From Candidatus Calditenuis fumarioli (GTDB lineage Archaea > Thermoproteota > Nitrososphaeria_A > Caldarchaeales > Calditenuaceae): a stretch of 64,000 nucleotides of DNA. Position 1 is the stretch's first letter, and each line of letters starts with the position of its first letter. The notes beneath the pieces were generated by a model. The model was not told the DNA's origin. It searched no databases and was given only the letters and a program-made list of their open reading frames with translations. Positions 1,093 through 21,576 of this stretch are shown here, one piece after another. The stretch is taken from contig JANVYR010000002.1 of NCBI GenBank assembly GCA_030059665.1, positions 192,001 to 256,000 of the forward strand. The letters run 5' to 3'. A program made the translations under genes and the position numbers.

Positions 1093-1230
1093 TGAACCAA
1101 GGGAGACGGAGCGGGTTTTCCGGTCGCATCGAGCCGGCCATCGCCAACCCGCGTTGTTCTAAGCGGTTGACGCCCTTTGGAACGACTTATTAACAGGCTT
1201 TTGCCTCTTCTGAGTTCGAGGTAGGACGTT

Positions 1231-2049
1231 GTGATCATAACCGTGAACGAGCTGACCACGAGAAGGAGCGTGAAGCTAGAGGTCGAGCCGGGACACACCG
1301 TGCGTGTGGTGGTCGAGGAGGTTATGAAGGCCCTCAAGATACCGCCGACAACGACGTACCGGCTCGTGCTCGGCGGCAAGGAGATCGGCCCTGAGCTCTT
1401 CGACAAGACGCTCGGCGAGCTGGGCATCTCGGACGGCGCCATCATGGACCTGGTACCGAGGCCGGTGGGTGGAGCGATGCTGCCGCAGGACAAGCTGCTG
1501 AAGAGGCTCGAGCGGGAGGAGCAGGAGATGAGGCAGCAGGGGTACGAGTTCGTCCGGGAGGAGGTCTGGAGGCAGATGAGCTTCCCGATGGTTTACAGCG
1601 CCGGGCTCGAGACCCTCGACGTAGCGCTGAGGTACGTCGTCACCTTTCAGGCACGCGGTTTCGTGCTGACCAAGAAGGGCGTGGAGGAGCAGCTCACCCA
1701 CACCGCCAGCATCTACGTGCTCCGGTACTACCCATACCCCGATCCGAAGCACGGTGCGCCGATGAGGATCTTCTGGGAGAGCAACATCTTCCATCCGAAC
1801 ATCTGCCCCGGGCCCAGATACGGCGGAAACGGGCTCGTCTGCTGGAAGATGATCAGGGAGTGGGGGAAGAACTTCTCGCTGTCGACGCTGGTGAGGGGCC
1901 TCCAGCTTCTCGTTGAGAACCCGAACCCCGAGGACCCGCTCAGCAAGATCCCCATCTGCATGCAAGCGACCGCCTTCTTCAAGGAGAACCCGCACCTCAT
2001 GGGATCCATGCAGGCTCCTGCCGGGGGCAGGCCGCGCGTCGTCGAATAG
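1231..2049 (+). CDS. Ubiquitin-like protein (aa 1-81, ends RPVGG) fused to a ubiquitin-conjugating E2 (UBC) domain
   Basis: Beta-grasp-like N-terminus ending Gly80-Gly81. E2 hallmarks follow: KRLEREE helix, YYP..P, IFHPNI (188-190), GLVC204, LQLLVENPNPEDPL. GAGGT RBS upstream of the GTG start. Confidence 0.9.
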   Translation: MIITVNELTTRRSVKLEVEPGHTVRVVVEEVMKALKIPPTTTYRLVLGGKEIGPELFDKTLGELGISDGAIMDLVPRPVGGAMLPQDKLLKRLEREEQEMRQQGYEFVREEVWRQMSFPMVYSAGLETLDVALRYVVTFQARGFVLTKKGVEEQLTHTASIYVLRYYPYPDPKHGAPMRIFWESNIFHPNICPGPRYGGNGLVCWKMIREWGKNFSLSTLVRGLQLLVENPNPEDPLSKIPICMQATAFFKENPHLMGSMQAPAGGRPRVVE

Positions 2050-2059
2050 CACGCCGATC

Positions 2060-2530
2060 ATGTGCGCCGAAGAGAGGCCGGTTTACCCAGTTTACATCGA
2101 CCTAGAGGTTTTGCTGGACGTGACGAAGCACGCACTGGAGGAGCTGCCGCGTGAGGTGATTGGGTTTCTGCTGGGGAGGGCCTACACGTGGAACGGCGAG
2201 ACGTATGTCCACGTGACCGGTTCGATAAGAGGTCGGTCCATCGCCTCCGAGACCTCAGTCGCCTTCGCTCCCGATTCACTGGCCGAGGTGGCCGAGTCTC
2301 TCAGGCGAGATCATCCCGACAAGGAGATCGTCGGATGGTACCACTCGCACCCGGGATACGGATGCTTTCTGTCACCGACCGACATAACGTCGCACAAATC
2401 TTGCTTCGCGATGCCGCATCACGTCGCGCTGGTGGTGGATCCGGTGAGGAAGGAGGCAGCCTTCTTTCGCGTCTCGGAGGGATTCGGCTACGAGGGCGTG
2501 AGGTCGGCCATCGTGAGGAGGCGGGTGTGA
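2060..2530 (+). CDS. JAB/MPN+ (JAMM) metallo-isopeptidase, Rpn11-like
   Basis: REVIGFLLG glutamate plus IVGWYHSHPGYGCFLSPTD, close to the Rpn11 motif. ATG at 2060 lies inside track ORF 1913..2530. Confidence 0.92.
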   Translation: MCAEERPVYPVYIDLEVLLDVTKHALEELPREVIGFLLGRAYTWNGETYVHVTGSIRGRSIASETSVAFAPDSLAEVAESLRRDHPDKEIVGWYHSHPGYGCFLSPTDITSHKSCFAMPHHVALVVDPVRKEAAFFRVSEGFGYEGVRSAIVRRRV

Positions 2531-2531
2531 A

Positions 2532-2705
2532 ATGGTCAGGGTGTTGGACGTCACGGAGCCGCAGCCCGAGCAGAGGCCTCCCCCTGACATAACGGACGAG
2601 TACGAGGTGATATCGCGCGATGAGGAGGGAGACGGTTACGACATCTCGGAGATCGTGGACATGTTGAAAGGCATGGAAAGCGGCGAGGGGGACGCTCAGC
2701 CCTGA
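2532..2705 (+). CDS. Small acidic protein, 57 aa (not in ORF track)
   Basis: Hand translation MVRVLDVTEPQPEQRPPPDITDEYEVISRDEEGDGYDISEIVDMLKGMESGEGDAQP. Starts 1 nt after the JAB stop. Confidence 0.65.
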   Translation: MVRVLDVTEPQPEQRPPPDITDEYEVISRDEEGDGYDISEIVDMLKGMESGEGDAQP

Positions 2706-3850: not shown

Positions 3851-5704
3851 GTGGCAACATTTAACAGTCAGCACATTTGTGTACCATCAATGGGTAAGGG
3901 CGATTCCTCCGATAAATCTAGGCGCATCGTTCCGATAAAATTCAAGCGCTGGGATGTGCCCCCGAACGTTGAGGTCTTCGACCGGTACAAGTCCGCGATG
4001 AGCGAGATCGTCATCGGCAGGGAACCCGGCTCACCGGTTCTGAAGTACTTCGTCCAGGACCCGCCGGTGAGCGAAAAGGAGCTCGAGCAGCTGGGCGAGC
4101 TGGCGGGTGAGCTGATCTACACCGCTCGCGGGCAGCAGGACTTCACCCGGGAGAAGTTCGAGGAAGTGCTGAAGAAGCGTAACTTGTACAACCCGATCCT
4201 GATGCACTACATCGAGAGGGAGCTTTGGGGATACGGCCCGCTCACCGCGGTAATGGCGGATCCTAAGATAGAGAACGTGGAGTGCAACAAGGCCGACTCA
4301 CCGGTGACCGTGACCCACACGGATTACGGGAGGATCGAGACCAACATGGCCTTCGCTGCGGACGAGCTCGACCGGCTGGTGATGCGGCTTGCCCATCTGG
4401 CGGGAAAGAGCGTGTCGGTGTTCAAGCCCTTCCTGGACGGCGTAACCATTCCCGGTGGTCACAGGTACACCTGCACCTACCGGACCGAGATATCGTCCAG
4501 CAGCACCTTCGCCATCAGGAAGTTCCCGGAGAAGCCCTGGACGATCGGAAAGCTGCTGTTGAACGAAACCATAACGCCGGAGATGGCTGCGTGGATCTGG
4601 CTGATGATCGAGACGAGGCAGGCGATACTCGTGGCAGGGGTGATGGGATCGGGCAAGACTTCGCTGATAAACGCCTTGGCCTCATTCACGCCTCCTCACA
4701 TGAAGATCGGGACCGCGGAGGACGTGCCGGAGTTCAGGCTGCCCCACACGTACTGGCTGAGGTACGTGATCAGGGAGGCGCAGACGATAGAGGGGACAGG
4801 GGCTGTGACGATCTTCGATTTGCTCAAGCTGCTCCTGAGGAGCAACGTGGACTACATCATGGTCAACGAGATCAGGGGAGAGGACGCCAAGGTCTGGATG
4901 CAGGCCGTTGCCACCGGACACGGAGGCGTCACGAGCATCCACGCGGAGGACCCGGACACGGTGTTCGCCAGGCTGGAACAGCTCGGCATACCGACCGCCC
5001 ACCTTTCGGCGCTGAGGGGAATAGCCTTCATTGGCTTCATCTTCCAGGACATCGGCAAGGGTTACTTCAAGCGGATCAGGAAGGTTAAGGAGTTCTTCGA
5101 GGTGAAGATCGACGAGTCCGGCAGGGAGGTCCGCAGGCTTTTCTGGTACGAGACAGGACCCAACGGAGGTCCCAGGTCGCTCAGCCTCGAGGAGCTGCTC
5201 GAGAGCAACTCCGCCCAGCTGATGATGCAGTACCTCGGCCTCTCGAAGGAGAGGCTGGCGGAGGAGTACAGGACGAGGGTCGACTTCCTCAGGTGGGTCG
5301 CTGGCATGTCACGGGCTAACCCGGAGGTGGCCGAGATGGATAGCATCAAGCAGCTGATGGCAAACTTCTACCTCGACAAGAACTTCTTCAGGTCGATACC
5401 GGTTCCAGCGCCGGCGAGGCCGAAGGAGCAGGAGAAGGCCGAGGTGCGGCCCGTCAAGCCTAAGGTGACCATACCGGTAGCCGTCAGGGAGGCGACGGCG
5501 AAGGAGCAGAAGGAGGGGGAGCAGAAGGAGGCGAAGGAGGTCGAGGCGAAGAGGCTCGGCGACGTGAGACTGGTGGGAATGGGCGACATGGTCCTGAGAC
5601 CGCCGCGCGTGGTGAAGAAGGGCAAGATGAAGTCTCAGGAGGAGAAAGAGAGGAAGGTGATGGGCGCACTGGCGTCCAAGCTCCGCAGGTCGGGTGAGGG
5701 GTGA
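3851..5704 (+). CDS. Type IV pilus/T2SS assembly ATPase (VirB11/TadA/FlaI family) with Lys/Glu-rich C-terminal tail
   Basis: Walker A GVMGSGKTS, Asp box EDVPE, Walker B YIMVNEIRG, His box TGHGGVTSIHAE. Alternative start ATG 3890. Confidence 0.93.
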   Translation: MATFNSQHICVPSMGKGDSSDKSRRIVPIKFKRWDVPPNVEVFDRYKSAMSEIVIGREPGSPVLKYFVQDPPVSEKELEQLGELAGELIYTARGQQDFTREKFEEVLKKRNLYNPILMHYIERELWGYGPLTAVMADPKIENVECNKADSPVTVTHTDYGRIETNMAFAADELDRLVMRLAHLAGKSVSVFKPFLDGVTIPGGHRYTCTYRTEISSSSTFAIRKFPEKPWTIGKLLLNETITPEMAAWIWLMIETRQAILVAGVMGSGKTSLINALASFTPPHMKIGTAEDVPEFRLPHTYWLRYVIREAQTIEGTGAVTIFDLLKLLLRSNVDYIMVNEIRGEDAKVWMQAVATGHGGVTSIHAEDPDTVFARLEQLGIPTAHLSALRGIAFIGFIFQDIGKGYFKRIRKVKEFFEVKIDESGREVRRLFWYETGPNGGPRSLSLEELLESNSAQLMMQYLGLSKERLAEEYRTRVDFLRWVAGMSRANPEVAEMDSIKQLMANFYLDKNFFRSIPVPAPARPKEQEKAEVRPVKPKVTIPVAVREATAKEQKEGEQKEAKEVEAKRLGDVRLVGMGDMVLRPPRVVKKGKMKSQEEKERKVMGALASKLRRSGEG

Positions 5705-7368
5705 TGGCGTCGATCACAGAAGCGCTGGAGCGCTCCCTGGCCAACTACATCTACCTGAGCGGGATACCCACCACGCCCCGCGATTACATCCGAAGGGTGT
5801 TCAATCTGCTCGTCGCTTCGGCCGTCGTGACCGCTGTGGTAACGTACCTCGCCCTGGCGGTGGCACGCGTTCCTGCCATGCTGATAGTGGGCGTCATGCC
5901 GTTGGCCTACTCCCTGTACCTCCTCTTCAGACCGATGGTCAAGGCCAGGTCGTTCGAGTCCCAGTGCATGCGCGAGCTGCCGTACGTTGCGGCGTTCATG
6001 ACGTCGTACGCCGCGGTCGGGATACCGCCCCACAGGTCAATGGCCTCCGTCTCCCTGAAGGAGCGGATATTCCCTGCGTTCGCGAGGCTGGTGAAGCGGA
6101 TGGAGGCGGTACGCATGATCACGGTGAAGGACCCCCTGGAGACGATAGAGGAGGAGGCGGACAAGATCAGCAGCCTGCCGCTGAAGGACTTCCTCCAGTC
6201 CGCGGTCGGAGCGGAGAGGGGAGGCGGCGGGATGTACAACGTATTGAAGGACAAGATGCGCAGCCTGTTCAACGAGCTGAAGGAGAGGTACAAGGCGCTC
6301 GGGGATCAGTTGAAGCTCTTCGGGGACCTGCTGCTGGTCTTCTTCGGCGTGCTGCCGCTGCTCCTCTACACGATGCTCACCGTCTTCGCGAGCGACATGG
6401 CCATCACGACCTCCAGGCTCTTCACGTTCATGGTGACGCCGTTGCTGGTGGTGACGCTGGCCGTGATGATAGACACCGGATATCCCTCTACGCCGCAGTC
6501 CTTTAACAGGTACTACGTCAGGGCGCTCATGCTGGGCCTTCCGATCGGCGCGGCTGTGGCCTCGGTCTTCTACCTCTCACCGGTCCTCGTTGAGACGCTG
6601 CTGGGCGCTAGGTTCGTCCAGTACAAGCTCGCCATCTCGCTGGGTGCGGGCCTGGTTGCGTTCTCGCTGGTCGCGACCTGGGTCTTTTACAGAGACTACA
6701 AGTTCATGAACGACGTGGACTACGCTCTCCCAAGCTTCGTGAGGGACCTGACCGAGGAGGTGAAGAAGGGGAAGAGCCCGACGCAGGCGACCATCTACCT
6801 CTCGGAGGTCCGAAGCTACAACAGAGCGTTCAACTTCGTCCTTCAGCAGATCGCCGCCCAGCTCAGGGTCGGGAGGAGCCTGAGGGAGGCCCTGGAGCCC
6901 TTCAGGGGGAAGGTCTCCTGGAGGTCCGAGCTGATACTGGACCTCGTGGCCGACGCGGAGGAGCTGGGAGCCCAGAAGGAGATCTTCGAGGAGGTGACCG
7001 AGATAAGCAGGGAGACGCGTGACGCGATCAGGGTCGCCAAGGCCAAGACGACCGGCATCAAGTACTTCGGGTTCATGGTGGCGCTGCTGATGATCTTCAT
7101 CGCCTCGCTACTGATCAAGCAGATCATCGTCCCGCTGGCGAACATGGCCGTAACCGTGCCCCAGAGCATCGGTCTCGGCAACATAAGGCTCCTCAGGCCC
7201 GAGCAGCTTCCGGAGCTGATCGACACCATCTCGGCCGGGATCGTCCTGAACGCGACGTTCCTCGGCGTGCTGACGGGGAAGATGAGCGACGGCATAACTG
7301 CGGCCGGGTTCCTCTACGCCTTCGTCTACACGCTGGCGGCGCTGGTGGCCATGGTGTTCCTCTTCTGA
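5701..7368 (+). CDS. Type IV pilus membrane platform protein (TadC/FlaJ/GspF family)
   Basis: Two T2SSF-like repeats (ELPYVAAFM...; LPSFVRDLTEEVKKG) with multiple TM helices. Overlaps the ATPase stop. Confidence 0.9.
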   Translation: MMASITEALERSLANYIYLSGIPTTPRDYIRRVFNLLVASAVVTAVVTYLALAVARVPAMLIVGVMPLAYSLYLLFRPMVKARSFESQCMRELPYVAAFMTSYAAVGIPPHRSMASVSLKERIFPAFARLVKRMEAVRMITVKDPLETIEEEADKISSLPLKDFLQSAVGAERGGGGMYNVLKDKMRSLFNELKERYKALGDQLKLFGDLLLVFFGVLPLLLYTMLTVFASDMAITTSRLFTFMVTPLLVVTLAVMIDTGYPSTPQSFNRYYVRALMLGLPIGAAVASVFYLSPVLVETLLGARFVQYKLAISLGAGLVAFSLVATWVFYRDYKFMNDVDYALPSFVRDLTEEVKKGKSPTQATIYLSEVRSYNRAFNFVLQQIAAQLRVGRSLREALEPFRGKVSWRSELILDLVADAEELGAQKEIFEEVTEISRETRDAIRVAKAKTTGIKYFGFMVALLMIFIASLLIKQIIVPLANMAVTVPQSIGLGNIRLLRPEQLPELIDTISAGIVLNATFLGVLTGKMSDGITAAGFLYAFVYTLAALVAMVFLF

Positions 7369-7374
7369 GGTGGG

Positions 7375-8931
7375 ATGATGAGGCGCTCCTCTTCGGGTCA
7401 GGTCCTGATCGGCTCCGCGACCGTGATGCTCGTGATACTGCTGGTGATGGCAGCATCGCTTCCGGTGATGAACACCAGCGTCGATCCATCGAGCGAGGTG
7501 TATAACGTTATGGAAGCCATCTCCCAGACCCTCGCAAAGCACTTCTTCCGAAAATTTGGAGCCCAACAGTGCGTTTTTCAAATGGCTTACGGTAAGGCTA
7601 AACCCTCTTACATAAAGTATGATGAAACAATTGAAAACGTCCTCAAGAAAACGTTAGAAAGTTATTATAAAATGCCAATAAAAGATTTTAAGGTTGACCT
7701 TCGCTATGTAGATTTCGAAATCAAGCTTCCGAAGTACGGCGGTCCAGCCATAATTAGCGGAGAAACAGGAAAAGTTGAGCAACAACCTCTTGGTGACATC
7801 TCAGCCAGCGTTTCCATAGAGGTCAGCGTGTCCTATAAAGTCGTTAAAACCACAAGGCAAGGTCCAACGGAAGTTTTTAAGAAGTTTATTTATAGAGAAT
7901 CCTTCGGAGTAAGAACCCAGACGATAGAACCGACATTGATATATAATCATGTCAAGGAATTCGTGCAAGCGATGCCTGGATGGGTACAATTTAGCATAGG
8001 CTTTATTCCTGTTGTGGGCGACGTTGTACAAATAGAGAATGCGAGAACATATTACAAGTATTATTGGTATTTCAATGCAGGCGCCCGAAAAGAAATTGTA
8101 CAGTACGATGGTAATGGCAACGAGGTCGCTAGGGTCTCGAAGGAATGGGGTTATATGAATTATGAAATAGACCCGAAATTCAACGAAAAGCTAGTCGTTT
8201 TGTTCTTCAATAGACCAGCCTATAAGGTCCAACTAAATAAAATTCCTCTTACAATTACTTATGGTCTAGTATATGTTGAATTGACCGAATACTATAACAT
8301 AGATTGGGTAGCCGTAGTACTGGGTCTGTTGGGTCTTATCTCAGTTGGTGATCTAGCTAAAGTGATTCGTATAGTCAAGTCGGATGCCCTAGACGATGAG
8401 GGGGCCGAAGAGACACTTAAGTTCTTCAAAATTCCCGAAGGAGGATTCTGGGATTGGAAATTTTTTAAGAAGGAGGAGCCACCATGGGCCGTAAAGAAGC
8501 CTAAGGAAACACAAGCAAGTAATATGCATAATGAGGGTGCGTTTACGTTTGGAAATGCTGACCGTTTTATGACACTTTCCGAGCAGGAGGGTTCCTGGGA
8601 AAAAATAATGCGTACCGTTAGGGAGTATGCGGAGAAAAAATTGACAGATCAAGAGTTTAAGGCTGCTGCCGATGAAATTAATAAGGCTGCAAGGGATCAG
8701 TTTCTTCAAGAAGCTGAAGATATAGATGCCACAGATTACCTTTACTCGAATGAACTCGGTCAGGGCCTCTTCCAGTCAACAGGTTCTAAGTGGTGGAAGT
8801 TCTTCGATCCTAACGAACAGGACCCATTCATGTACATTATTTATCCACGCAACGGTGGCGGCGTTTACCATATGTGCGTTTGGCTTGAAGGCTTCCATCC
8901 AAGAATCGAGTACGTAGAGGAGGGACAATAA
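7375..8931 (+). CDS. Large pilin-like protein (class III signal peptide) with an AT-rich variable body
   Basis: MMRRSSSG|QVLIGSATVMLVILLVMAA N-terminus. Codon usage becomes AT-rich after about 7500. Confidence 0.7.
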   Translation: MMRRSSSGQVLIGSATVMLVILLVMAASLPVMNTSVDPSSEVYNVMEAISQTLAKHFFRKFGAQQCVFQMAYGKAKPSYIKYDETIENVLKKTLESYYKMPIKDFKVDLRYVDFEIKLPKYGGPAIISGETGKVEQQPLGDISASVSIEVSVSYKVVKTTRQGPTEVFKKFIYRESFGVRTQTIEPTLIYNHVKEFVQAMPGWVQFSIGFIPVVGDVVQIENARTYYKYYWYFNAGARKEIVQYDGNGNEVARVSKEWGYMNYEIDPKFNEKLVVLFFNRPAYKVQLNKIPLTITYGLVYVELTEYYNIDWVAVVLGLLGLISVGDLAKVIRIVKSDALDDEGAEETLKFFKIPEGGFWDWKFFKKEEPPWAVKKPKETQASNMHNEGAFTFGNADRFMTLSEQEGSWEKIMRTVREYAEKKLTDQEFKAAADEINKAARDQFLQEAEDIDATDYLYSNELGQGLFQSTGSKWWKFFDPNEQDPFMYIIYPRNGGGVYHMCVWLEGFHPRIEYVEEGQ

Positions 8932-9512
8932 TGAGGGACAGCAATTACCCCTCTGCTCTCAGCGCCAAAACCTTAGCGAGGTCATCCGTGAAGAGCGTGG
9001 GACAGGCCTCCGTCACCTTCGTCGTCCTCGTGGTGCTGCTGGGACTGATAGGCACCGCCTTCTACATGGCAAACCAGTACATGGGGATCTTCGAGCCGTC
9101 GGTCTGGGACGCGGTCGAGGCGTTCAACAGGGCCGTCCAGAGGGTCTACGGTCTGCCCGAGAGGTCGGCCACCATATCGATCTACATTCCCTCCCACGCG
9201 TCGCTGAAAATATCCAGGTCGGGCTCAGGCGACGGCCTAGTCCTGGAAGCGACCGGCGCCTTCGGCGACAGGAGGTACCGGCTGATCGAGCAGGACGGAT
9301 GGGAGCTGATAAACGAGGGCTCCACCACGCTCTCCACCGACGGCCGGCTCAGGGTCGTCTACGGATCGCAGGATAGGCCCCTGAGGCTGGGCTCGGTCGA
9401 TCTCACCCTCGGCCCCGGAAGGCACACGCTCGTGATCAGGAACCTGAACGGCGTCACCGTGGCTGTCCAGCCCGTTCCCCACGGGATCCCCACGGAGGTG
9501 ATGAGCAGGTGA
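8931..9512 (+). CDS. Minor pilin-like protein (class III signal peptide)
   Basis: KSVG|QASVTFVVLVVLLGLIG. Coupled to the upstream stop; the true start may be the internal GTG (MKSVGQ). Confidence 0.75.
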   Translation: MRDSNYPSALSAKTLARSSVKSVGQASVTFVVLVVLLGLIGTAFYMANQYMGIFEPSVWDAVEAFNRAVQRVYGLPERSATISIYIPSHASLKISRSGSGDGLVLEATGAFGDRRYRLIEQDGWELINEGSTTLSTDGRLRVVYGSQDRPLRLGSVDLTLGPGRHTLVIRNLNGVTVAVQPVPHGIPTEVMSR

Positions 9513-12500
9513 GGCTGAAGGTCGCACTGCTCTTCGCGACGGTTCTCATCGCGATGCTGCTCCAGCCAGCGCACTCCCAGACGCAGCTCCCGCCAGGCGA
9601 ATCGGAGGACCTCGGCGTCTCGGTCCTTCCAGATGGGACGCTGACGGTCTGGTACGCGGCCGCCTACCCGATAGGGGCCCTCAACCGCTCCGCCACGCTG
9701 CTCGAGGAGCTGGGAATGTCAGGAGCTACAATGACGGTCTACTACGACGGCTCGCAGGGGCCGTTCACCCTCCAGCTGGAAATCTACGGCGAATCGCTCA
9801 ACGAGAAGAAATCGTCAGACCTGGCGATGACAATAGGCCGGGACCTCGGCATACCCCTCAGCCTGAACAGATCGACGGAGACCTCCCACATCTACACCGC
9901 AACGCTTTCCAGGAAGCAGCTTGAGGACCTGATATCCGAGCTCAGGCCGCTCACGAAATCCGGCGGGTTCTCCGCCAACTTGAACCTGGATTACCTCCGG
10001 AGGTTCAGGGGCTCCTACGTCGTGGTCGAGCTGGTCAGGATGGGCTGGGGGGTGTCCACGTCCTTCGAGGTCAGGGCCTTCGGGCCCACCCTCAACCAAA
10101 CCGGAGGAACGTATGTTGTGGACGTCCTCGCAGCGTTGGGGGTCAGCGAGCTCAGGCCCTCCGAGCAGGCGCTGATGAACGTGATGTTCGTGCCGCCGAT
10201 CGGATCCGACTCCGTCTCCTACTCGGTCTCACCTCCCTCTGCCAAGGTGAGGGACCTGGTGCCCGGACTGAACGTCCTGTACGTCCAGCTCAGCGGAGGC
10301 GAGGTCCTCAGGAGGTTCCAGGTGGAGTTCAGCTACAACGGCTCCTCCCTGACGGGCATAGCGGGGAAGCTCACCGACTTCATGGCCTTCGTCGAGGAAC
10401 TGGAGAGCTCCGGCTCCCTGGTGAACAGGACGTCCCACATGGTACCCACATCTGGCGGAGGACGGGGGACGGCTTCAACCGAGACCGAGAGCACCACGAC
10501 GGCCGAGACCGAGGCGCCTGCACCCGGTCAGCAGGGCGTAGAGACGCGGCAGACCACCACGACCACCAGGAACAGGGTCGGCTCCCTGCCGCCGGTCACC
10601 AGCCCGGAGAGGGGCCAGGCGATCGATCCCCTGCTGGTCCTCGGAATCGCGGTCCTCGCGGTGGCCGTAATAGCCCTCGGGACGGTCTACGTGAACCGCG
10701 GGAGCAAGCTGACGGCCAAGGGGGCTGCGACCGTAGCCCTCTCGACGCTGATGATCGCCGCCGTGGTGCTTCCGGTCCTCACGATGGACGTCGCGAACGC
10801 GCAGCAGGGTCTGGGTCAGGGAGGTCTGGAGCCGCTAGTCGAGGTGAAGCAGTTCAGGCCCGGAGGAGCCCCGCCGGACCTGGAGGTACCGCTGCTCTTC
10901 CCGGGCTTCAAGCAGATAGACAAGATCAGCAAGACCTTCATCTCCTTCGAGGAGATCAAGCTCCTCGCCACGCCCTCCCTCTATGCCCCGTACACGCCCC
11001 AGGGATTCGCGAAGCTCCTGGCAACGCTCGGCATAGATCTCAGGCTGATACAGGCCGCCGGGCTGATAGTGGGAGGAGGCCTCAACCCCCTCGGGATGTT
11101 CAAGGGGTTGACCCTGGCCCACGGAGGCACATCGGCCTTCATCGCCGGAGAGGCGGTCGGTGCCAACGTCTACCTGGTCTTCAAGGCCAAGCCCTCCTCG
11201 ACCCTCGAGTCGATGCTCGACGTCATAAACGCGGTCTACAAGATGGGCTACATCCTCTACCACTCGACGATCTGCTTCCCCGGTGACGGCTGCCTCCACC
11301 CGATAGGTCAGGCCATGATGATAACCGCAATCCTCGCGTCCGTGTACCTCGCGATAACCGCTCCGGGCTTCATGGTCTACGCCTACGCCTCCTACCCCTC
11401 GCTGGTCAACGACCTCTACGTGACGTGGGGAGCGGTGGACGGTCCAGTTGTGAGGGACAAGGAACGGGTCTGGCTGGCCGAGAACCGGTACATGGTCTCC
11501 CTTCCGATCCTGATAATGATCCTCAGGGCTCCCACTTTGTCCGGTTGGAGGGGTTCCAAGGGCCTTGCCGAGACGCCGATGACCGCGTCCTTCCACGTCT
11601 CTTCCGACGCGGACTCCGGGTGGAAGCTCACGGGGTTCCTGGGAGTCTACTCTGGGGACAGAGGCCTCAAGGTCGGCATCGACTTCAGGGACGCGATGGG
11701 GATATGGCAGCTCTTCCAGGTCATCTCGGGTGCGTTCTCCAGCACCTGGTCCAGCATGGCAGGCATCATCGCCGGGTCTCTGGGCGAGGTAGAGGCCACG
11801 CTGCAGCAGGCGGAGTCGTCGCTTTCGGCCATCGGCGCTGAGAGGAGCCCCTACCTGAGCAGTGCCCTCTCCAAGGTGCGTAACGCCATACAGCTGGTGA
11901 GGGACGCTCGGACGAAGCTGATCAGCTACAACTGCGCCGGAGCGATTTCGAACGTAGAAGGCGCGAGGGAGAACGTCGAAGGCGCCATTCAGGACCTCCA
12001 GGAAGCAGCGGCCAGCAGCCCAGCGCTCGGGCTTATGGTCCAGCCCATCATCCAGCAGTTGGAGAGGACCCTCGGTTCGCTGCAGGAGTTCGACGAGAGG
12101 ATAGCCGGCGTCTGCGCGCCCTTGAACTTCAAGGCCGACCCGCCGACTGACCCGGAGTCGCTTCCCGAGGAGCAGAAGTTGACGCTCACGTTCCTCGTGT
12201 TCACCGCAACCCCGCTCGTAACTGAGGCCGTCAACCAGAAGGGCTTCTCGGTCATCAGGCTCAGGGCCTACTACGGCTGGAACCCGTTCCCGGGGATCGT
12301 CCAGGGCGTTGCGGTCAAGGTGCGGTCCGTGTTCGAGACCGTCAGGTCGGTCGCCTACAACGAGCTCGACATGCTCTCAGAGGCCACCTCCACGATCAGC
12401 GAGGTCACCGAATCCGGGTTCAACACGGCAGCTGAGGGGTTGCTGGGCAACCTGGGGAGCTCCTTCGCTGGCGAGCTCATCGGGTCATTGAGCCAGGTTT

Positions 12501-13957: not shown

Positions 13958-13971
13958 GAGGTCGCGATGGC

Positions 13972-14793
13972 TTGAGGCGTAGCGAATCCGGTCTGAGCGT
14001 GGCCGTACAGACTGCAGCGATGATAGTGATAACTGTGGCCATAGCAGGGGCCATCGTAGCCCTGTGGAGGCCATGGGAAACGGGAAGTCAGGTCCAAGCC
14101 GGAGACATATCCTACGTCATGCAGAACGTCCATGAGGCTGTCCTCAGGCGAGAGGGTTCGGTCCAGCCACATTTCTCGCTCACGGTTTACCCGCTCAAGG
14201 AGACCCACAAAGTGGAAATCGAATGGAACGGCAATAGAATGCCTGTTATGGTGTCAGTAAGCACTATAGAATATCATGGCGACAAGATGAGACTCCCAGG
14301 CGTGTACTTCCTCGACAAGGGGAGCGTCGACGTTCTCGGGACCTACATCGCGGACAGGAAAAGGAACTACACGGTCAATGGGGTGGATACGGTATCCTAT
14401 GTCGAGTACGATGAAAAGGGGATGAAATACGTCGTCAAGGCCCTGCCATACGTTAACGTGGCCGTTGACAGAGTGTACCACGACGTTGTCGTTAACGTCA
14501 TGATAAGGTTCGTGGTGCTCGCGCCCTATCCGCTGAACGCGATGGAGTTCCCAGACTCGGTTAAGCGAGGATACACCATCGGAGCGGGGCAGATGATCAC
14601 CCTCAGGATGAACAACACCTACAGGTTCTACATGCAGCAGCCCGAGTCGGTGGGCGGAGGGACCCTCAGGCTCTACTTCGATGGCGAGCCAATCCTCAAC
14701 GCGCAGAACGAGGCCCTGGAGGTCAGGACTACAGAGCACACCATAGTGAGGGTGTTCGTGGACATGGTCGTGCTGAACGTATGGGGGAGGTAG
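13972..14793 (+). CDS. Minor pilin-like protein (class III signal peptide)
   Basis: MRRSESG|LSVAVQTAAMIVITVAIAGAIV. GGAGG RBS upstream of TTG. Confidence 0.75.
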   Translation: MRRSESGLSVAVQTAAMIVITVAIAGAIVALWRPWETGSQVQAGDISYVMQNVHEAVLRREGSVQPHFSLTVYPLKETHKVEIEWNGNRMPVMVSVSTIEYHGDKMRLPGVYFLDKGSVDVLGTYIADRKRNYTVNGVDTVSYVEYDEKGMKYVVKALPYVNVAVDRVYHDVVVNVMIRFVVLAPYPLNAMEFPDSVKRGYTIGAGQMITLRMNNTYRFYMQQPESVGGGTLRLYFDGEPILNAQNEALEVRTTEHTIVRVFVDMVVLNVWGR

Positions 14794-14794
14794 C

Positions 14795-15271
14795 TTGGCC
14801 TCGACCTACGTATACATCGTCACGATAGGCGTTCTGATGCTGATCGGCATGACTTCCGCATACCTCCTCATGCAGCAGGTCGGATCGATGACGTACGTCG
14901 GCCAGAGGAACGCCCTCGCGGTAGCGGCCTCGCACGTCCTTTCGGGGATGTGGAGCGCGGTGGAGGAGGCCAAACTCGTTCCCGGCGGGGGAGTGGAGTA
15001 CAAGGCCGTCTCGGTGGGGTTCTCGTTCAGGGCTGAGGTGGGGAACAGCCCGAGGACGGGCCAGCTCTCCCTCTGCGTCACGGCGTTCGGCATCGCCTAT
15101 GAGAGGCCTCTCCCCACCATTCCCGGTGTCACGTACAGGCCCTCGGGTTCGGGAGGTGAGGTGGTTACGATCAGGGCCTCCGTATCGGAAGGGTCGATCG
15201 AAATAACGCTTGGAAACATGGACCAGAACAGTCAGTTCACAGAGGGCCAGCCAACGGAATGCTTCAAATGA
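14795..15271 (+). CDS. Pilin-like protein with N-terminal hydrophobic helix
   Basis: MASTYVYIVTIGVLMLIGMTSAYLL. Coupled to the previous gene; no charged leader visible. Confidence 0.6.
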   Translation: MASTYVYIVTIGVLMLIGMTSAYLLMQQVGSMTYVGQRNALAVAASHVLSGMWSAVEEAKLVPGGGVEYKAVSVGFSFRAEVGNSPRTGQLSLCVTAFGIAYERPLPTIPGVTYRPSGSGGEVVTIRASVSEGSIEITLGNMDQNSQFTEGQPTECFK

Positions 15272-17576: not shown

Positions 17577-17738
17577 CGAATGCGAAAGAACTCGCCAAAA
17601 TAAAATTCTTTTTCTGAAAACAGTCCAAATCTGCCCATGCGGACAGCTCATCCCTCTCGTATGAGCGTCGAGGATCGAACCGTCCGTGGCGGGCGCAACA
17701 GGGGAACGTTTTTGAAGGGCTCAGGGGCATGAGGTTCG

Positions 17739-18425
17739 ATGGAGGGAGCGGTCAGAATAGCAGCGTCGGCCGTGATCGCCTTCATTGCGGCACTGGGGCT
17801 CGTCATCGCTTTCCCGGGGATCGTTCCCGGAACGATGAGGGTGACCACTGTTCAGGTTCCCGTGGTGGTAACGCAGACGCTCAGGGTGAACGTCACCCAT
17901 ACCGCCTTCCAGACCGTCCTGAAGGACACCGCAGGACCTGTGTGGGAGCTGGTCTTCGTCGAGTTGCCCCGCGAGCCACGAGAAGGCTCGATAACGGTGT
18001 ACAACGCGACGCTCGGCCTCGGACGCAGCGGTATAGCGGCGGCCATCGTGGTCAAGGCCCCTGACGGATACCAGTTCGCGCCGACGGTGAACGGGTTCGT
18101 GTTCAGGCTTGAGACCAACCTACCGGTAAAGGCTCTGGTGCTGTACTCCGACGTCTCGGTCCCCGTTGTGCCGGGGCTCGACAGGAGCAACTACAGGACG
18201 ATGCTCGCCGAGAAGGCCTTCTCGCCCACCGCGCTCCTGCCGTACCAGAACCCGAGGAGGGCCGACGCTTCACCGGGCGCCTTCACGCTCCAGCGCGAGC
18301 GGGGCAACTTCCAGCCGTATTCGTGGCTCGCGATCTGGCCGCTTTCGGTCTACTTCCACGGCATCGAGGGCCACGAGACGAAGGTGCGGGTCGTGCTGAC
18401 CTACAGCCTGGTGGAGGCGAGGTGA
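17739..18425 (+). CDS. Membrane-anchored/secreted beta-rich hypothetical protein
   Basis: N-terminal hydrophobic helix IAASAVIAFIAALGLVIAF, then a Val/Thr-rich stalk. Confidence 0.7.
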   Translation: MEGAVRIAASAVIAFIAALGLVIAFPGIVPGTMRVTTVQVPVVVTQTLRVNVTHTAFQTVLKDTAGPVWELVFVELPREPREGSITVYNATLGLGRSGIAAAIVVKAPDGYQFAPTVNGFVFRLETNLPVKALVLYSDVSVPVVPGLDRSNYRTMLAEKAFSPTALLPYQNPRRADASPGAFTLQRERGNFQPYSWLAIWPLSVYFHGIEGHETKVRVVLTYSLVEAR

Positions 18426-18426
18426 G

Positions 18427-19278
18427 GTGTCAATGTCATCCGGCACAGGTCTGAGGGGGCTCCCCGTCCTGCAGGTCTACAGGATGGACGACGACGTCTA
18501 CGAGAGGCAGCGTCGTATCTGGAACCAGGACAGAATAGGCGCGATGCGGGTCCTGGTGGGAGGTGCGGGCGCGCTCGGGAACGAGATCGTCAAGAACCTC
18601 GTTCAGATCGGGGTCAAGCGCGTTTACGTAATCGACTTCGACCGTGTGGTCGCGTCCAACCTTAACAGGTGCCTCTTCTTCCGGAGGAGCGATGCCCTCA
18701 GGAGGAGCAAAAAGGTGGAGGTGCTCGCGAGAAGGGCGAGTCAGATCAACAGCGACGTCGAGGTGGTCCCGATCCACGGCGACATCAGGGACCTGAGTGA
18801 CGACGTCATCAGGGACGTGGACATCGCGCTAGGTGCCTTCGACAACTTCCACGCAAGGCTGGTCCTGAACCTGCGGTGCTACGAGAGGCAGGTCCCCCTC
18901 ATCGACGGTGGCATCGAGGGACTGCTCGGGACGGTGCAGGTGGTGGTGCCTCCCTTCACGCCCTGCATCGAGTGCGGCATCACCGACATGGACCTCCAGC
19001 ACCTTTGGGAGAGGTTCTCGTGCGGCGGCGAGGCCACCGGGCTGGAGGGGCCGAAAATCCCGTACGTTCCGATGACGGGGGCGGTCGTCGCAGGCATTCA
19101 GGTCGCCGAGTGCGTCAAGGTCCACCTCGGGCTGGAGCGCTTCAAACGGGAGGGGAACTGGAGCGACAGCGTTGGCGAGCCCATGGCGGGCAAATCCCTG
19201 CTGATAGACCTCAGAACGGGTTCGTTCTACGCGTATGACCTCCAGCGGAGGAGCGACTGCAACGTCTGCTCTCTTTGA
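18427..19278 (+). CDS. Ubiquitin-activating E1-like enzyme (ThiF/UBA family)
   Basis: YERQ, VLVGGAGALGNE, DFDRVVASNLNR, Zn pairs CIEC and CNVC, candidate catalytic Cys in RFSCG. Confidence 0.92.
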   Translation: MSMSSGTGLRGLPVLQVYRMDDDVYERQRRIWNQDRIGAMRVLVGGAGALGNEIVKNLVQIGVKRVYVIDFDRVVASNLNRCLFFRRSDALRRSKKVEVLARRASQINSDVEVVPIHGDIRDLSDDVIRDVDIALGAFDNFHARLVLNLRCYERQVPLIDGGIEGLLGTVQVVVPPFTPCIECGITDMDLQHLWERFSCGGEATGLEGPKIPYVPMTGAVVAGIQVAECVKVHLGLERFKREGNWSDSVGEPMAGKSLLIDLRTGSFYAYDLQRRSDCNVCSL

Positions 19279-19317
19279 ACGGAGTAAGGTTATATGATCC
19301 AGTAAGGCACCACAATC

Positions 19318-21576
19318 ATGGGAAGAGACCCGCAAAGCACGAGCGAGATCGTTGCACGGAGCGTTCCGATCTTCCTCCTCCTGGTCCTCCTATTGACGCA
19401 GTCGGCACAGGTTCTGGTGGCGCACGCTCAACAGGACTCGTCACCTCCCATCAGTTTGCCGCTCAGGGCACCGCTTCCGGTGAACGTGATCACCGTTGGA
19501 CTCAGGCCGGAGGTGCTGGGGCTGAGGACGATGGCGGAGCTTCAGCAGATACTCAGCACGCACGTCAGGTCAAAGGCCGCTTCCTACGTCGGCTTCAGCC
19601 TCGACGACCCGATCCTGATCGCCGAGTTCGACGTCCATCTCCAAGTTCTGGAGGCCCCCCAGCGGTTCGTGGCCGAGTTCGCCAACGATTTGTCCTTGGT
19701 CACATATGATCCGGCGAGGCTCCCGCTGGAGGCCAAGCAGGAGAACCAGAGGTACAGGGACTTCGTCAGGTCGGCTTACGGCGGCACCGTGGCTGGCAGC
19801 CTGACGTTCACCCTGACCGACATGGAGGCTGTCGTTCAGCTCATGGCCTACTACACCGAGAAGTACATACCCGCGGTCCTGAACGACTACAACGTCTACC
19901 TCCTCTGCGGTAACTCTTTCTTCGATGGAAAGGTCCCGGTGTACTTCACGGTGGGCTACACGCCAGAGAGGCAGGTGCCCAACGCGGTGGTGGGCCTCAA
20001 CCTGTACGGAGGCATGTGGACCGGCCGGCACGTGGTGATCGACGTCTGCGCGGTGCCTAACCCTTACGGCAACTTCGCGCCGAAGGGCCAGCAAGAGGTC
20101 CTCGAGTACCTGCCGGTATGGGTCTCCAACGACCCTGAATTCAGGATCGGGATGGTGGTGAAGTACGTGGACGAGGTCATCGACAACCTCTTCGTCAAGT
20201 CCCTGCTCTACCTGCCCCGGTATCAGGTGACCTACCTCTTCGACGTCGTGGTGATCGACCTGACCACCTCCGGTGGAGGGCCCTCCTTCTTGGTGAACAA
20301 CTTCTCCCCTGAGCTCTTCGAGTACGCCATGAGGCAGCTGGCGCCCTACAACTACTACACGAGCAGGTACAGCTACTACCACATAAGCGATGTGCCGCAG
20401 ATGAGGCAGGTCATCCGCTCCTCTAGGGGATACCAGGTAATAGACGTGGAAGCGGCGCTCGACACAGCCCAGCGTCTCGGGATAATCAAGGAGACCGTGA
20501 AGGGTGTCGCTTACACGCCGATACTGATCTTCGTCTCGGACTCGGACATTTTCCCTGATGCGCCAGGCGTGCTCGGCATAGCATGGGCTGACAGGGAGGA
20601 CCCCAGATATCCACGGGGGGTGGTGGTCGGGGCCGTGTTCAGCGCAATTCAGCGCGAGGGCCTCACGTTCACCGTCATCCACGAGGCAGGGCACACGCTT
20701 GGGCTGGCACACCCGTTCCAGGACCTCGACGAGTCGCAGATGGCCCCCGGCAGGTCCGGAAACCTCAGGCCGACGTTCGTGAACAGGTGGATCTACGCCT
20801 ACGTCGACTCCGCGATGACCTACGCTAATGTGCTTCAGGTCACCGATTACCGGGACCTCTTCACATACAAGTACCCGATGAGGACCTTCTTCAGCACCTT
20901 CGACCTGGACGCGCTGGACAGGACCACGATCTCCCTCCTGCTGTACTACTACCTGCTCTACAGACAGGAGGCTCTTGCGGAGCTCAACAAGCTCAACAGG
21001 CCGCTTGAGGCCTTCGAGAAGGGGAAGGAGCTTCTAAAGCTGGCTGACCAGGCCGCCGTCGATGCGGTCAGGCTATTCGAGCAGCATATGTACTTCGATC
21101 GGCTGGAGTTCGAGGGACTGGGATCGCAGCTGGTCTCCTCGTTCGATCACGCCTGGCTCGCATACGTCTCGGCTTACACCCTGTACAACCTGATCGTGGG
21201 CGTTCAGGACGCAGCGGCCTTTTACGAGCCCCAGATCGAGGAGCTGCAGCGCACGGTTGCGAATCTGAACGGCAGGATCAACGATCTGAGCTCCCAGCTC
21301 GAGGACTCGAGGAGGCAGACGGAGCAGCTGAGGACGGCGCTGGAATCGGAACGCCAGCAGAGGAATGCCATCCAGGCGGAGCTTGACCGGACGAAGGGCG
21401 AGCTGCAGCGGGCACAGCAGGATCTCGCGGCGAAGGAGAGGGAACTCTCCGACGCCAACGCCAGGGCAACGACCTACCTCTACGGCATGGTGGGGGTCGC
21501 CGTCGGCGCAGCGGTCGCGGTCGCGTCCGTGGTCGTCCTCAGCAGCAGGAGAAGGCCGAAACCGACGGTAGCCTGA
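19318..21576 (+). CDS. Secreted metzincin metallopeptidase with C-terminal coiled coil and TM anchor
   Basis: Signal peptide (AHA|QQ). HEAGHTLGLAH (HEXXHXXGXXH), Met-turn SAMTY, heptad coil, terminal TM. Confidence 0.88.
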   Translation: MGRDPQSTSEIVARSVPIFLLLVLLLTQSAQVLVAHAQQDSSPPISLPLRAPLPVNVITVGLRPEVLGLRTMAELQQILSTHVRSKAASYVGFSLDDPILIAEFDVHLQVLEAPQRFVAEFANDLSLVTYDPARLPLEAKQENQRYRDFVRSAYGGTVAGSLTFTLTDMEAVVQLMAYYTEKYIPAVLNDYNVYLLCGNSFFDGKVPVYFTVGYTPERQVPNAVVGLNLYGGMWTGRHVVIDVCAVPNPYGNFAPKGQQEVLEYLPVWVSNDPEFRIGMVVKYVDEVIDNLFVKSLLYLPRYQVTYLFDVVVIDLTTSGGGPSFLVNNFSPELFEYAMRQLAPYNYYTSRYSYYHISDVPQMRQVIRSSRGYQVIDVEAALDTAQRLGIIKETVKGVAYTPILIFVSDSDIFPDAPGVLGIAWADREDPRYPRGVVVGAVFSAIQREGLTFTVIHEAGHTLGLAHPFQDLDESQMAPGRSGNLRPTFVNRWIYAYVDSAMTYANVLQVTDYRDLFTYKYPMRTFFSTFDLDALDRTTISLLLYYYLLYRQEALAELNKLNRPLEAFEKGKELLKLADQAAVDAVRLFEQHMYFDRLEFEGLGSQLVSSFDHAWLAYVSAYTLYNLIVGVQDAAAFYEPQIEELQRTVANLNGRINDLSSQLEDSRRQTEQLRTALESERQQRNAIQAELDRTKGELQRAQQDLAAKERELSDANARATTYLYGMVGVAVGAAVAVASVVVLSSRRRPKPTVA

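What the first reader, a model, noticed from the sequence alone, without database searches (positions are those of the whole stretch)
1231..2049. Ubl-GG|E2 polyprotein: the ubiquitin's C-terminal pro-extension is its own E2
Seen: the Ubl ends RPVG80G81 and runs directly into A-M-E2, which has HPN(188-190) and Cys204 with a short insertion between them. The Gly-Gly codons (GGTGGAG) also form an SD-like site 3-4 nt before ATG 1477, so the E2 could be initiated on its own. Known: Ub precursors need cleavage after GG, and archaeal Rpn11-like JABs trim pro-ubiquitin. Inferred: the adjacent JAB splits the fusion to give Ubl and E2 at 1:1, making the protease an on-switch.
Basis: partly seen in the sequence, partly recalled or inferred. 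Interest (0 to 1): 0.85.

Follow-up and report, generated by a model that had tools for sequence, protein, structure and literature searches.

The report
Archaeal ubiquitin fused to its E2
A hot-spring archaeon encodes a ubiquitin-like protein and its ubiquitin-carrier enzyme (E2) as one polypeptide joined at the Gly-Gly, followed by an Rpn11-type protease gene that most likely cuts them apart; this design is proven in bacteria, but I found no description of it for the eukaryote-like archaeal ubiquitin systems.

Summary
ORF 1231-2049 (+) encodes 272 aa: a ubiquitin-fold domain (1-81, ending RPVGG), then after two residues a UBC-fold E2 with HPN188-190 and Cys204. An Rpn11-like JAB with an intact JAMM motif starts 10 nt downstream.

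The fusion is not an artefact. It is uninterrupted in five genomes of one Caldarchaeales (Calditenuaceae) genus. It also occurs in at least ten more distant metagenomic protein clusters (25-43% identity), where GG, HPN and the Cys are invariant. A JAB gene follows it in all six fused loci read, and none of these holds another ubiquitin-type gene. Split relatives exist, and their E2 starts exactly at the fusion point.

Cleavage after G81 by the JAB, giving Ubl-GG and E2 at 1:1, is the best reading (about 0.7). It is inferred, not shown.

Met83 is replaced by Thr, Ala, Val or Ile in relatives, and SD-like 4-mers precede a third of all internal ATGs here.

The cognate short E1 lies 16.4 kb away (18484-19278). 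The genome also carries a separate canonical Ub/E2/E1 operon.

Precedent is bacterial Type I Bub (BubAB cut by a JAB), so this is a new variant of a known kind. The scan has noted other, different archaeal Ubl/E2 fusions on other DNA.

The parts
1231..1473 (+). Ubiquitin-like beta-grasp domain (residues 1-81) of the fusion protein, ending RPVGG; the predicted scissile bond is G81|A82 (1473|1474)
   Evidence: Pfam ubiquitin and Rad60-SLD near threshold. PDB phmmer aligns it to ubiquitin and to Caldiarchaeum Ub 2mqj. AF2 pLDDT 86-95 with beta-beta-alpha-beta-beta-beta order. Foldseek to ubiquitin TM 0.86, rmsd 1.6 A. G80 and G81 are invariant in the close and the distant fused homologues.
1474..2049 (+). 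UBC-fold E2 domain (residues 82-272 plus stop): helix alpha1 from residue 86, HPN at 1792-1800, predicted catalytic Cys204 at 1840-1842, disordered tail ending in a conserved P-R-V-V motif
   Evidence: Pfam UQ_con over its cut-off. H188, P189, N190, C204 and W211 are invariant across the fused family. Foldseek to UbcH5/Ubc13. Stand-alone relatives start at the position of M83 (MLP...).
2060..2530 (+). Rpn11-like JAB/MPN+ metalloprotease (156 aa), the predicted maturase and deconjugase
   Evidence: Pfam JAB 60.1 bits. Best solved relative is Caldiarchaeum Rpn11 6fjv, E 3.9e-18. E32, H95, H97, S105 and D108 (JAMM motif) are invariant in the JABs of the five other fused loci plus split locus L015 that were aligned. 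It follows the fusion in all six fused loci read.
2532..2705 (+). Small acidic protein (57 aa) with a conserved N-terminal motif (M-VRI..E..EE-PPP..E-EVV); fourth conserved gene of the cassette, function unknown
   Evidence: A gene with the same motif follows the JAB in L005, L007, L045/L046 and L048; the copies in L045 and L048 are longer and carry a hydrophobic segment, and the 262-aa ORF after the JAB in L015 has a similar PPP motif and a hydrophobic segment by eye but was not aligned. No Pfam or PADLOC match.
18484..19278 (+). Cognate short E1 (ThiF adenylation domain, 264 aa from ATG 18484; the ORF is open from 18427), without the C-terminal ubiquitin-like domain of the canonical archaeal E1
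   Evidence: Pfam ThiF 157 bits. It is 65% identical to the ThiF encoded two genes upstream of the fusion gene (one 138-aa ORF between them) in relative L005, and 36% to the E1 next to a stand-alone E2 in L008. A Cys in the crossover region (ERFSCGG) is conserved in all six short E1s, beside the two CxxC zinc pairs.
17739..18425 (+). 228-aa ORF of unknown function that travels with the E1
   Evidence: A 229-aa gene precedes the ThiF in L005 as well, but homology between the two was not tested. No Pfam match.
19275..19709 (+). 144-aa ORF of unknown function directly after the E1
   Evidence: A 138-aa gene sits between the ThiF and the fusion gene in L005, but homology between the two was not tested. 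No significant Pfam match.

Best explanation
The gene encodes a natural ubiquitin-E2 precursor of a second, compact ubiquitylation system in a Caldarchaeales (Aigarchaeota) archaeon. The polypeptide is made as one chain. The JAB encoded 10 nt downstream (Rpn11 type) cuts the G81-A82 bond. This frees a ubiquitin-like protein with a C-terminal Gly-Gly and an E2 whose N-terminal helix becomes exposed, in equal amounts. The short E1 at 18484-19278 then adenylates the Ubl and passes it through its conserved Cys to E2 Cys204, and from there to targets, possibly helped by the RING-like protein encoded 1.1 kb upstream of the window. The same JAB probably also removes the Ubl from targets. Shown here: both folds, the catalytic residues, conservation of the fusion and of its GG, the invariable JAB neighbour, the absence of any other Ubl in these loci, and the identity of the E1. 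Inferred: cleavage, the thioester relay, the targets, and any regulatory role.
For: Folds and motifs. The junction DLVPRP-GG--LP is invariant apart from V79 in 11 close homologues, and the Ubl half (70-98% identity) is more conserved than the E2 half (60-93%). In 12 fused proteins at 25-65% identity, G80, G81, H188, P189, N190 and C204 are invariant. A JAB gene follows the fusion in the window, L005, L007, L045, L047 and L048, and an E1 is adjacent or one gene away in L005, L047 and L048. A profile of the Ubl domain finds no other ubiquitin-type ORF in any of these six loci, so a free Gly-Gly can only come from cleavage. The JAMM residues are invariant and the nearest solved relative is CsRpn11. 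CsRpn11 cuts CsUb precursor and linear Ub-GFP, Ub-DHFR and Ub-lactalbumin fusions after GG (PMC6043591; PMC5654768). A bacterial JAB cuts BubAB after the conserved Gly (10.1101/2024.11.21.623953). Split relatives have a pro-Ubl with a 16-residue tail, or a Ubl ending in GG, plus an E2 that starts at the fusion point. Residue P1' is small or aliphatic in all family members, which fits the steric rule found for CsRpn11.
Against: There are no biochemical data for this protein or any member of its family. Only four residues separate G81 from helix alpha1 of a folded E2. CsRpn11 processing is sensitive to bulk after the cut site and to the folding state of the attached protein (PMC6043591, abstract seen; section read), so efficient cleavage is not guaranteed. 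In this genome the E1 is 16.4 kb away, and a second Rpn11-like JAB exists at C1:29766, so which protease acts is not proven. I could not inspect a predicted JAB-precursor interface.
Confidence: 0.72

Rival explanations
1. The fusion is never cleaved. The Ubl is a permanent N-terminal domain of the E2, for example a docking or regulatory module, and the modifier that the E2 carries comes from elsewhere, such as the canonical Ub (78 aa, ending in GG) encoded on contig C1.
For: The genome does hold a free, mature-ended Ub on C1. The linker is very short. The scan's unchecked note e1-4422316 reports a non-catalytic Ubl/E2 fusion in other archaea.
Against: GG is invariant at the junction across 25-94% identity, which a mere domain linker would not require. 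A JAB always follows. A dedicated short E1 travels with the cassette. The fused loci have no other Ubl. The canonical Ub is only 31% identical and has its own E2 and E1.
Confidence: 0.1
2. Two products arise by translation, not proteolysis: the full fusion plus a free E2 initiated at ATG 1477, using the GGTGGAG of the Gly-Gly codons as a Shine-Dalgarno site.
For: ATG 1477 sits exactly where stand-alone E2s begin (MLP...). GGTG and GGAG match the anti-SD tail ...GGATCACCTCC of the 16S rRNA.
Against: Met83 is ACC (Thr) in G024 and G027 of the same genus, and Ala, Val or Ile in other fused homologues. SD-like 4-mers lie 3-11 nt upstream of 33% of internal in-frame ATGs, against 34% of crude ORF starts, so the match carries no information and the genome shows almost no SD signal. 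The motif ends only 2 nt before the ATG. Even if used, this route would not free the Ubl's Gly-Gly.
Confidence: 0.08
3. The precursor is cleaved, but by another enzyme: the second Rpn11-like JAB (C1:29766), the Prok-JAB at C1:258819, or another protease. The adjacent JAB would then act only as a deconjugase.
For: Three JAB genes exist in the genome. The two Rpn11-like ones are 38% identical.
Against: The adjacent JAB is the one that co-occurs with the fusion in all six fused loci read, including short metagenomic cassettes. CsRpn11 and CsJAMM are each specific for their own substrate (PMC6043591).
Confidence: 0.07
4. The fusion is an assembly, frameshift or gene-calling artefact that joins two separate genes.
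For: In the canonical operons of related genomes, Ub and E2 are adjacent genes, sometimes in the same frame.
Against: The same open frame is found in five genomes of the genus, in four named MAGs, in proteins from JGI, ENA, NCBI and Logan, and in contigs of runs from ten studies. Distant fused clusters exist too.
Confidence: 0.01

Closest known systems
Caldiarchaeum subterraneum ubiquitylation system (CsUb precursor, E1, E2, small RING finger protein, CsRpn11; PMC3082918, PMC5654768, PMC6043591)
   Same: Same archaeal order. It has a ubiquitin-type beta-grasp ending in GG, a UBC-type E2 with HPN and Cys, a ThiF-type E1 and an Rpn11-type JAMM protease that is the closest solved relative of this JAB. 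The modifier is made as a precursor that must be trimmed after GG.
   Different: There the pro-peptide is nine residues of no known function; here it is the 191-residue E2 itself. The E1 here is short (264 aa), without the C-terminal ubiquitin-like domain, which resembles what that paper's supplement calls Cluster III. This genome also has a separate canonical Ub/E2/E1 operon whose Ub needs no trimming. The two sets are only 27-41% identical.
Bacterial Type I Bub operon ('6E.1'): BubAB Ubl-E2 fusion, BubCD JAB-E1 fusion, BubE DUF6527 (bioRxiv 10.1101/2024.11.21.623953; noted as polyUbl fused to an E2-like domain in PMC1779556)
   Same: The Ubl is fused N-terminally to its E2 and released by the operon's JAB, which cuts after the conserved Gly. 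This is the experimental precedent for the mechanism proposed here.
   Different: BubB has Ser in place of the catalytic Cys, lacks the C-terminal UBC helices, and works through oxyesters. The E1 there lacks a catalytic Cys and is fused to the JAB. A DUF6527 protease is part of that system. Here Cys204 and HPN are invariant, the C-terminal helices are present, JAB and E1 are separate genes, the E1 keeps a conserved Cys, and DUF6527 was not found in the genome.
Eukaryotic ubiquitin fusion precursors (polyubiquitin; Ub-L40/UBA52 and Ub-S27a/RPS27A) (own knowledge)
   Same: Ubiquitin is translated as the N-terminal part of a larger protein and freed by cleavage after Gly-Gly. The partner is a functional protein made in equal amount.
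   Different: In eukaryotes the partners are ribosomal proteins or more ubiquitin, and the cutting enzymes are mostly Cys-type DUBs. Here the partner is the E2 of the same pathway and the protease is a JAMM enzyme.
Bil (BilABCD) and type II CBASS Cap2/Cap3 conjugation modules
   Same: They are compact prokaryotic E1/E2/JAB sets with a GG-type modifier.
   Different: No PADLOC model of these systems matches the fusion protein. The E1 gives only weak generic hits, with BilD at E 1.8e-4. Ubl and E2 are separate genes in Bil, and E2-E1 are fused in Cap2.

Membership tests
Archaeal eukaryote-like ubiquitylation system (Caldiarchaeum type) | Ubiquitin-fold modifier ending in Gly-Gly | tested here: met
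   GG is invariant.
Archaeal eukaryote-like ubiquitylation system (Caldiarchaeum type) | UBC-fold E2 with HPN motif and catalytic Cys | tested here: met
   UQ_con is over its cut-off. HPN188-190 and C204 are invariant. The fold matches UbcH5/Ubc13. Thioester chemistry itself cannot be tested here.
Archaeal eukaryote-like ubiquitylation system (Caldiarchaeum type) | Rpn11-type JAMM protease with an E...HxH...S..D motif, encoded with the system | tested here: met
Archaeal eukaryote-like ubiquitylation system (Caldiarchaeum type) | [quoted passage not shown] | tested here: not met
   The E1 is 264 aa and ends right after the second CxxC. The canonical E1 of the same genome (394 aa) has the extra C-terminal region. 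This fits the paper's description of Cluster III.
Archaeal eukaryote-like ubiquitylation system (Caldiarchaeum type) | Small RING-finger E3 | tested here: inconclusive
   A 99-aa Cys/His-rich protein lies 1.1 kb upstream of the window (L004:12880-13179). It scores Prok-RING_1 25.1 bits against a 29.1-bit cut-off. An orthologue is present in the L005 locus.
Archaeal eukaryote-like ubiquitylation system (Caldiarchaeum type) | Modifier and E2 encoded as separate genes | tested here: not met
   One uninterrupted frame.
Type I Bub (6E.1) | Ubl-E2 fusion protein | tested here: met
   The architecture is the same.
Type I Bub (6E.1) | E2 with catalytic Ser (no Cys) and no C-terminal UBC helices | tested here: not met
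   Cys204 and HPN are invariant. Helices 217-229 and 241-252 are present.
Type I Bub (6E.1) | JAB fused to a Cys-less E1 (BubCD) | tested here: not met
   JAB and E1 are separate genes. The E1 has a conserved crossover-loop Cys.
Type I Bub (6E.1) | DUF6527 protease (BubE) | tested here: not met
   PF20137 was not found in the 91%-complete genome or in the loci read.
Type I Bub (6E.1) | JAB cleaves the fusion after the conserved Gly | not testable with these tools
   This needs biochemistry. It is inferred here.
Bil (BilABCD) | Match to the BilA/BilB models of PADLOC | tested here: not met
   There is no PADLOC hit for the fusion protein. The E1 gives only a weak BilD hit, E 1.8e-4.

The most novel reading that the evidence does not exclude
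In a eukaryote-like, cysteine-based archaeal ubiquitin cascade, the E2 is the obligatory pro-peptide of its own ubiquitin. The uncleaved chain would be doubly inert: the Ubl carboxylate is blocked, and the E2's N-terminal helix, the usual E1- and E3-binding face, is masked by a Ubl four residues away. The Rpn11-type protease would then gate the whole pathway. The fusion would also deliver Ubl and E2 as a pre-formed pair to an E1 that has lost its E2-recruiting ubiquitin-like domain.
Probability: 0.2. Interest if true: 0.75.

Novelty: new variant of a known kind. Interest (0 to 1): 0.55.

Why it matters
Aigarchaeal ubiquitin systems are the best prokaryotic models for how eukaryotic ubiquitylation began. 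This locus shows three things. First, one archaeon can carry two parallel Ub/E1/E2/Rpn11 sets, which raises a testable question of how cross-talk between them is avoided. Second, the 'ubiquitin as N-terminal half of a polyprotein' strategy, known from eukaryotic Ub-ribosomal protein genes and from bacterial BubAB, also exists with a canonical HPN/Cys E2. Third, fusion and fission of Ubl and E2 happened repeatedly in this family. The cassette is small (E1, Ubl-E2 and JAB, about 690 residues) and thermostable. It would be a convenient minimal system for studying Rpn11-type processing next to a folded domain, and E2 charging by an E1 that lacks a ubiquitin-fold domain.

Tried and rejected
1. Complex prediction of JAB, Ubl-E2 and the 57-aa protein, with the 57-aa protein as the scored partner. 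The verdict was 'no answer', because the control with the Ubl-E2 chain replaced scored as high as the real complex.

2. The first structure prediction, on 11 close homologues, gave mean pLDDT 65 with the HPN-Cys region unresolved. It was superseded by the 61-row model.

3. Shine-Dalgarno reading of GGTGGAG: rejected as uninformative.

4. The ThiF at C2:90378 is MoeB plus rhodanese. The ThiF at C1:99302 belongs to the canonical operon. Neither is the E1 of this system.

5. The matches 'with stops inside' in genus g15 and G308 looked like near-fusions. They are canonical Ub and E2 genes that happen to share a frame across a spacer of about 25 codons.

6. The search for related loci with the diverse alignment failed for lack of a conserved stretch. 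The close alignment returned only same-genus MAGs, so the taxa of the distant fused clusters remain unknown.

7. PADLOC and Pfam gave nothing for the small protein or the E1-flanking ORFs.

8. Literature searches and reading of PMC5654768, PMC4327156 and PMC1779556 found no description of an archaeal Ub-E2 fusion with a canonical E2. The library is incomplete, so this is 'not found', not 'never published'.

9. Laying contigs of four runs: one 198-nt contig from an RNA library covers 1338-1534 across the junction. This is only a weak hint of transcription, because DNA carry-over cannot be excluded. The parts without RNA cover mean nothing.

Full report
WHAT IS THERE

ORF 1231-2049 (+), with a GTG start, encodes 272 residues. 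Residues 1-81 end in R-P-V-G80-G81 (codons 1459-1473). A82 and M83 (ATG 1477) follow. An E2 then begins with helix alpha1 at residue 86 and carries HPN188-190 (1792-1800) and Cys204 (1840-1842).

Pfam gives UQ_con above its cut-off, and ubiquitin and Rad60-SLD just below theirs. phmmer against the PDB aligns residues 9-83 to ubiquitin, with G80-G81 on ubiquitin's terminal Gly-Gly. It also finds the Caldiarchaeum ubiquitin 2mqj and many E2s.

A first AlphaFold2 run on 11 close homologues was mediocre. With a 61-row alignment the model reaches mean pLDDT 90.1. It shows a beta-grasp (strands 2-7, 12-17, 42-47, 50-52, 71-77; helix 24-34) and a UBC fold with unusually long beta-strands. Foldseek superposes the N-domain on ubiquitin (TM 0.86, rmsd 1.6 A) and the C-domain on UbcH5/Ubc13 (TM about 0.63). 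Caldiarchaeum Ub from the Ub:Rpn11 complex 6fnn is among the hits.

SURROUNDINGS

Ten nucleotides after the stop codon starts a 156-aa JAB (2060-2530). Its JAMM motif is intact: E32 and H95-x-H97-x7-S105-x2-D108. Its best solved relative is Caldiarchaeum Rpn11, followed by eukaryotic Rpn11 and CSN5. One nucleotide after its stop begins a 57-aa acidic ORF (2532-2705).

No E1 is adjacent. The genome, 1.57 Mb and 91% complete, has three ThiF genes:
- MoeB plus rhodanese.
- A 394-aa E1 in a canonical operon on contig C1. The operon holds Ub (78 aa, ending GG-stop), E2 (167 aa) and E1.
- A short ThiF at window 18427-19278.

The short ThiF is 65% identical to the ThiF that lies two genes upstream of the fusion gene in a relative, with one 138-aa ORF between them (L005). 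It is 36% identical to the E1 beside a stand-alone E2 of the same family (L008). It is therefore the cognate E1, displaced 16.4 kb. A 228/229-aa and a 138/144-aa ORF flank it in both genomes, with a type IV pilus-like gene cluster in between.

This E1 lacks the C-terminal ubiquitin-like region of the canonical E1. It keeps a conserved Cys in the crossover region.

A 99-aa RING-like protein (Prok-RING_1, below threshold) followed by a coiled-coil protein lies 1.1 kb upstream of the window and recurs in L005. The genome has three JABs, two of them Rpn11-like.

The organism thus has two paralogous Ub/E2/E1/Rpn11 sets that are 27-41% identical. By the record titles of 77-78%-identical loci it belongs to the Caldarchaeales, family Calditenuaceae. 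The runs that hold the stretch are mostly labelled hot-spring metagenomes (one is a sediment metagenome).

IS THE FUSION REAL AND CONSERVED?

It is. Proteins at 62-94% identity from JGI, ENA, NCBI and Logan are all fused. One apparent stand-alone E2 (P0011) is a contig-end truncation whose upstream codons read P-V-G-G-L.

- Among 76 genomes of the order, the uninterrupted fusion occurs in five of seven genomes of the window's genus. All other genomes have the canonical separate Ub and E2 genes.
- In a sample of 401 genomes of the phylum it was again found only in this genus.
- An exhaustive search of 1.84 billion representatives found ten further fused clusters at 25-43% identity. In their alignment G80, G81, H188, P189, N190, C204, W211 and P231 are invariant.
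- Their loci are cassettes: Ubl-E2, JAB and a 131-aa gene (L045); Ubl-E2, JAB and E1 next to recombinase and integrase genes (L047); and E1, Ubl-E2, JAB and a 137-aa gene (L048).
- A profile of the Ubl domain finds no second ubiquitin-type ORF in any of the six fused loci.

Split versions also exist. In G022, placed in the same genus, the operon is pro-Ubl (GG plus a 16-residue tail), E1, E2 (starting MLP...) and JAB. In L008 the order is E1, then E2, with a Ubl ending exactly in GG on the other strand.

On an E2-domain tree, fused and split forms interleave. The tool counts 5 changes forced by well-supported branches (8 on the tree as drawn), but one truncated fused protein (P0009) was labelled split, so I take at least four. 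The caveat is that some 'split' representatives may be truncated gene calls; only the two above were checked by eye.

THE INTERNAL START

ATG 1477 is the relic of the ancestral E2 start codon, since stand-alone E2s begin MLP at that position. It is not conserved. It is ACC (Thr) in two genomes of the same genus, and Ala, Val or Ile elsewhere.

The 16S rRNA ends ...GGATCACCTCC. SD-like 4-mers lie 3-11 nt upstream of 33% of internal in-frame ATGs and of 34% of crudely defined ORF starts. GGTGGAG, which is forced by the Gly-Gly-Ala codons and ends 2 nt before the ATG, is therefore no evidence for initiation. Internal initiation would in any case not free the Ubl's carboxylate.

MECHANISM

An E1 needs the free carboxylate of the last Gly (established for all Ubl systems). 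Four facts point to the JAB cutting after G81:
- The only Ubl of the cassette is buried in the fusion.
- GG is invariant.
- The residue after it is small or aliphatic.
- An Rpn11-type JAB with all catalytic residues is always the next gene.

Its closest characterised relative, CsRpn11, does exactly this to pro-ubiquitin and to linear Ub-GFP, Ub-DHFR and Ub-lactalbumin fusions. [quoted passage not shown] In bacterial Type I Bub operons the JAB domain of BubCD cuts the BubAB Ubl-E2 fusion after the conserved Gly (10.1101/2024.11.21.623953).

I therefore put about 0.72 on 'precursor cut after G81 by the adjacent JAB, giving Ubl-GG and E2 at 1:1, followed by an E1-Cys to E2-Cys204 relay'. None of these steps was measured.

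The 'on-switch' idea is possible, because a Ubl four residues before alpha1 should also hinder the E2's E1- and E3-binding face (inference). However, the 10-nt gap between the JAB gene and its substrate gene suggests co-expression and routine maturation.

COMPARISON AND NOVELTY

The system works like BubAB/BubCD but is not a Bub member. It has Cys instead of Ser, HPN and the C-terminal helices are present, JAB and E1 are separate genes, the E1 keeps a conserved Cys, and no DUF6527 was found.

It is a relative of the Caldiarchaeum system. It differs in the fusion and in the short E1, which fits that paper's 'Cluster III' description. No PADLOC defence model matches the fusion protein.

I found no paper describing an archaeal Ub-E2 fusion with a canonical E2, but the library is incomplete. 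The scan itself has unchecked notes of other archaeal Ubl/E2 fusions of different kinds on other DNA.

Verdict: a real, conserved, probably processed Ub-E2 polyprotein. It is a new variant of a known kind, and of moderate interest.

Noticed in passing
2532-2705 (+): A 57-aa acidic ORF starts 1 nt after the JAB stop and has a conserved N-terminal motif (M-VRI..E..EE-PPP..E-EVV). Homologues follow the JAB in L005, L007, L045/L046 and L048, where two are longer with a hydrophobic, probably membrane-spanning, segment; the 262-aa ORF after the JAB in L015 looks similar by eye but was not aligned. It matches no known family.
   Followed up: partly
G000:C1:98523-100456 (L002:722-2655): The same genome carries a canonical Caldiarchaeum-type operon: Ub (78 aa, ending GG-stop, no pro-peptide), E2 (167 aa) and E1 (394 aa). 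A second Rpn11-like JAB lies 70 kb away at C1:29766. One archaeon therefore has two parallel ubiquitin systems.
   Followed up: partly
L004:12880-14023 (1120 to about 1 nt upstream of the window start): A 99-aa Cys/His-rich RING-like protein (Prok-RING_1, 25 bits, below the cut-off) is followed 1 nt later by a 280-aa coiled-coil protein. The pair recurs next to the fusion cassette in L005. It is a candidate E3 plus adaptor.
   Followed up: partly
L004:9474-9776 (-), about 4.2 kb upstream of the window: A ThiS/MoaD-type protein has its Gly-Gly followed by seven more residues (…AGGLAIRSSP). It is a masked SAMP-like protein of a different family from the fused Ubl and is not detected by the Ubl profile.
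   Followed up: partly
2026-2046 (+), C-terminus of the E2: The disordered E2 tail ends in a P-[RK]-[VI]-V motif that is conserved in most fused family members and in the split E2 of L015. It is possibly a short docking motif.
   Followed up: no
3851-17651: A type IV pilus or secretion-like cluster separates the cassette from its E1 in this genome. It comprises a T2SSE ATPase of 617 aa, a T2SSF membrane protein, several large proteins with no family match including one of 1482 aa, and a 518-aa protein at 7375-8931. Relatives L005 and L007 have similar-sized genes in other arrangements, so the region is rearranged between close genomes.
   Followed up: partly
L047 (JGI 3300035199 contig), 7304-15216: A distant fused cassette (Ubl-E2, a 291-aa JAB, and E1) lies next to YqaJ exonuclease, serine recombinase and integrase genes. 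This suggests that some members travel on mobile elements or viruses.
   Followed up: no
1189-1195 (+): TTATTAA lies 36-42 nt upstream of GTG 1231. It is a possible archaeal TATA box that would give a very short leader. This was read by eye only.
   Followed up: no
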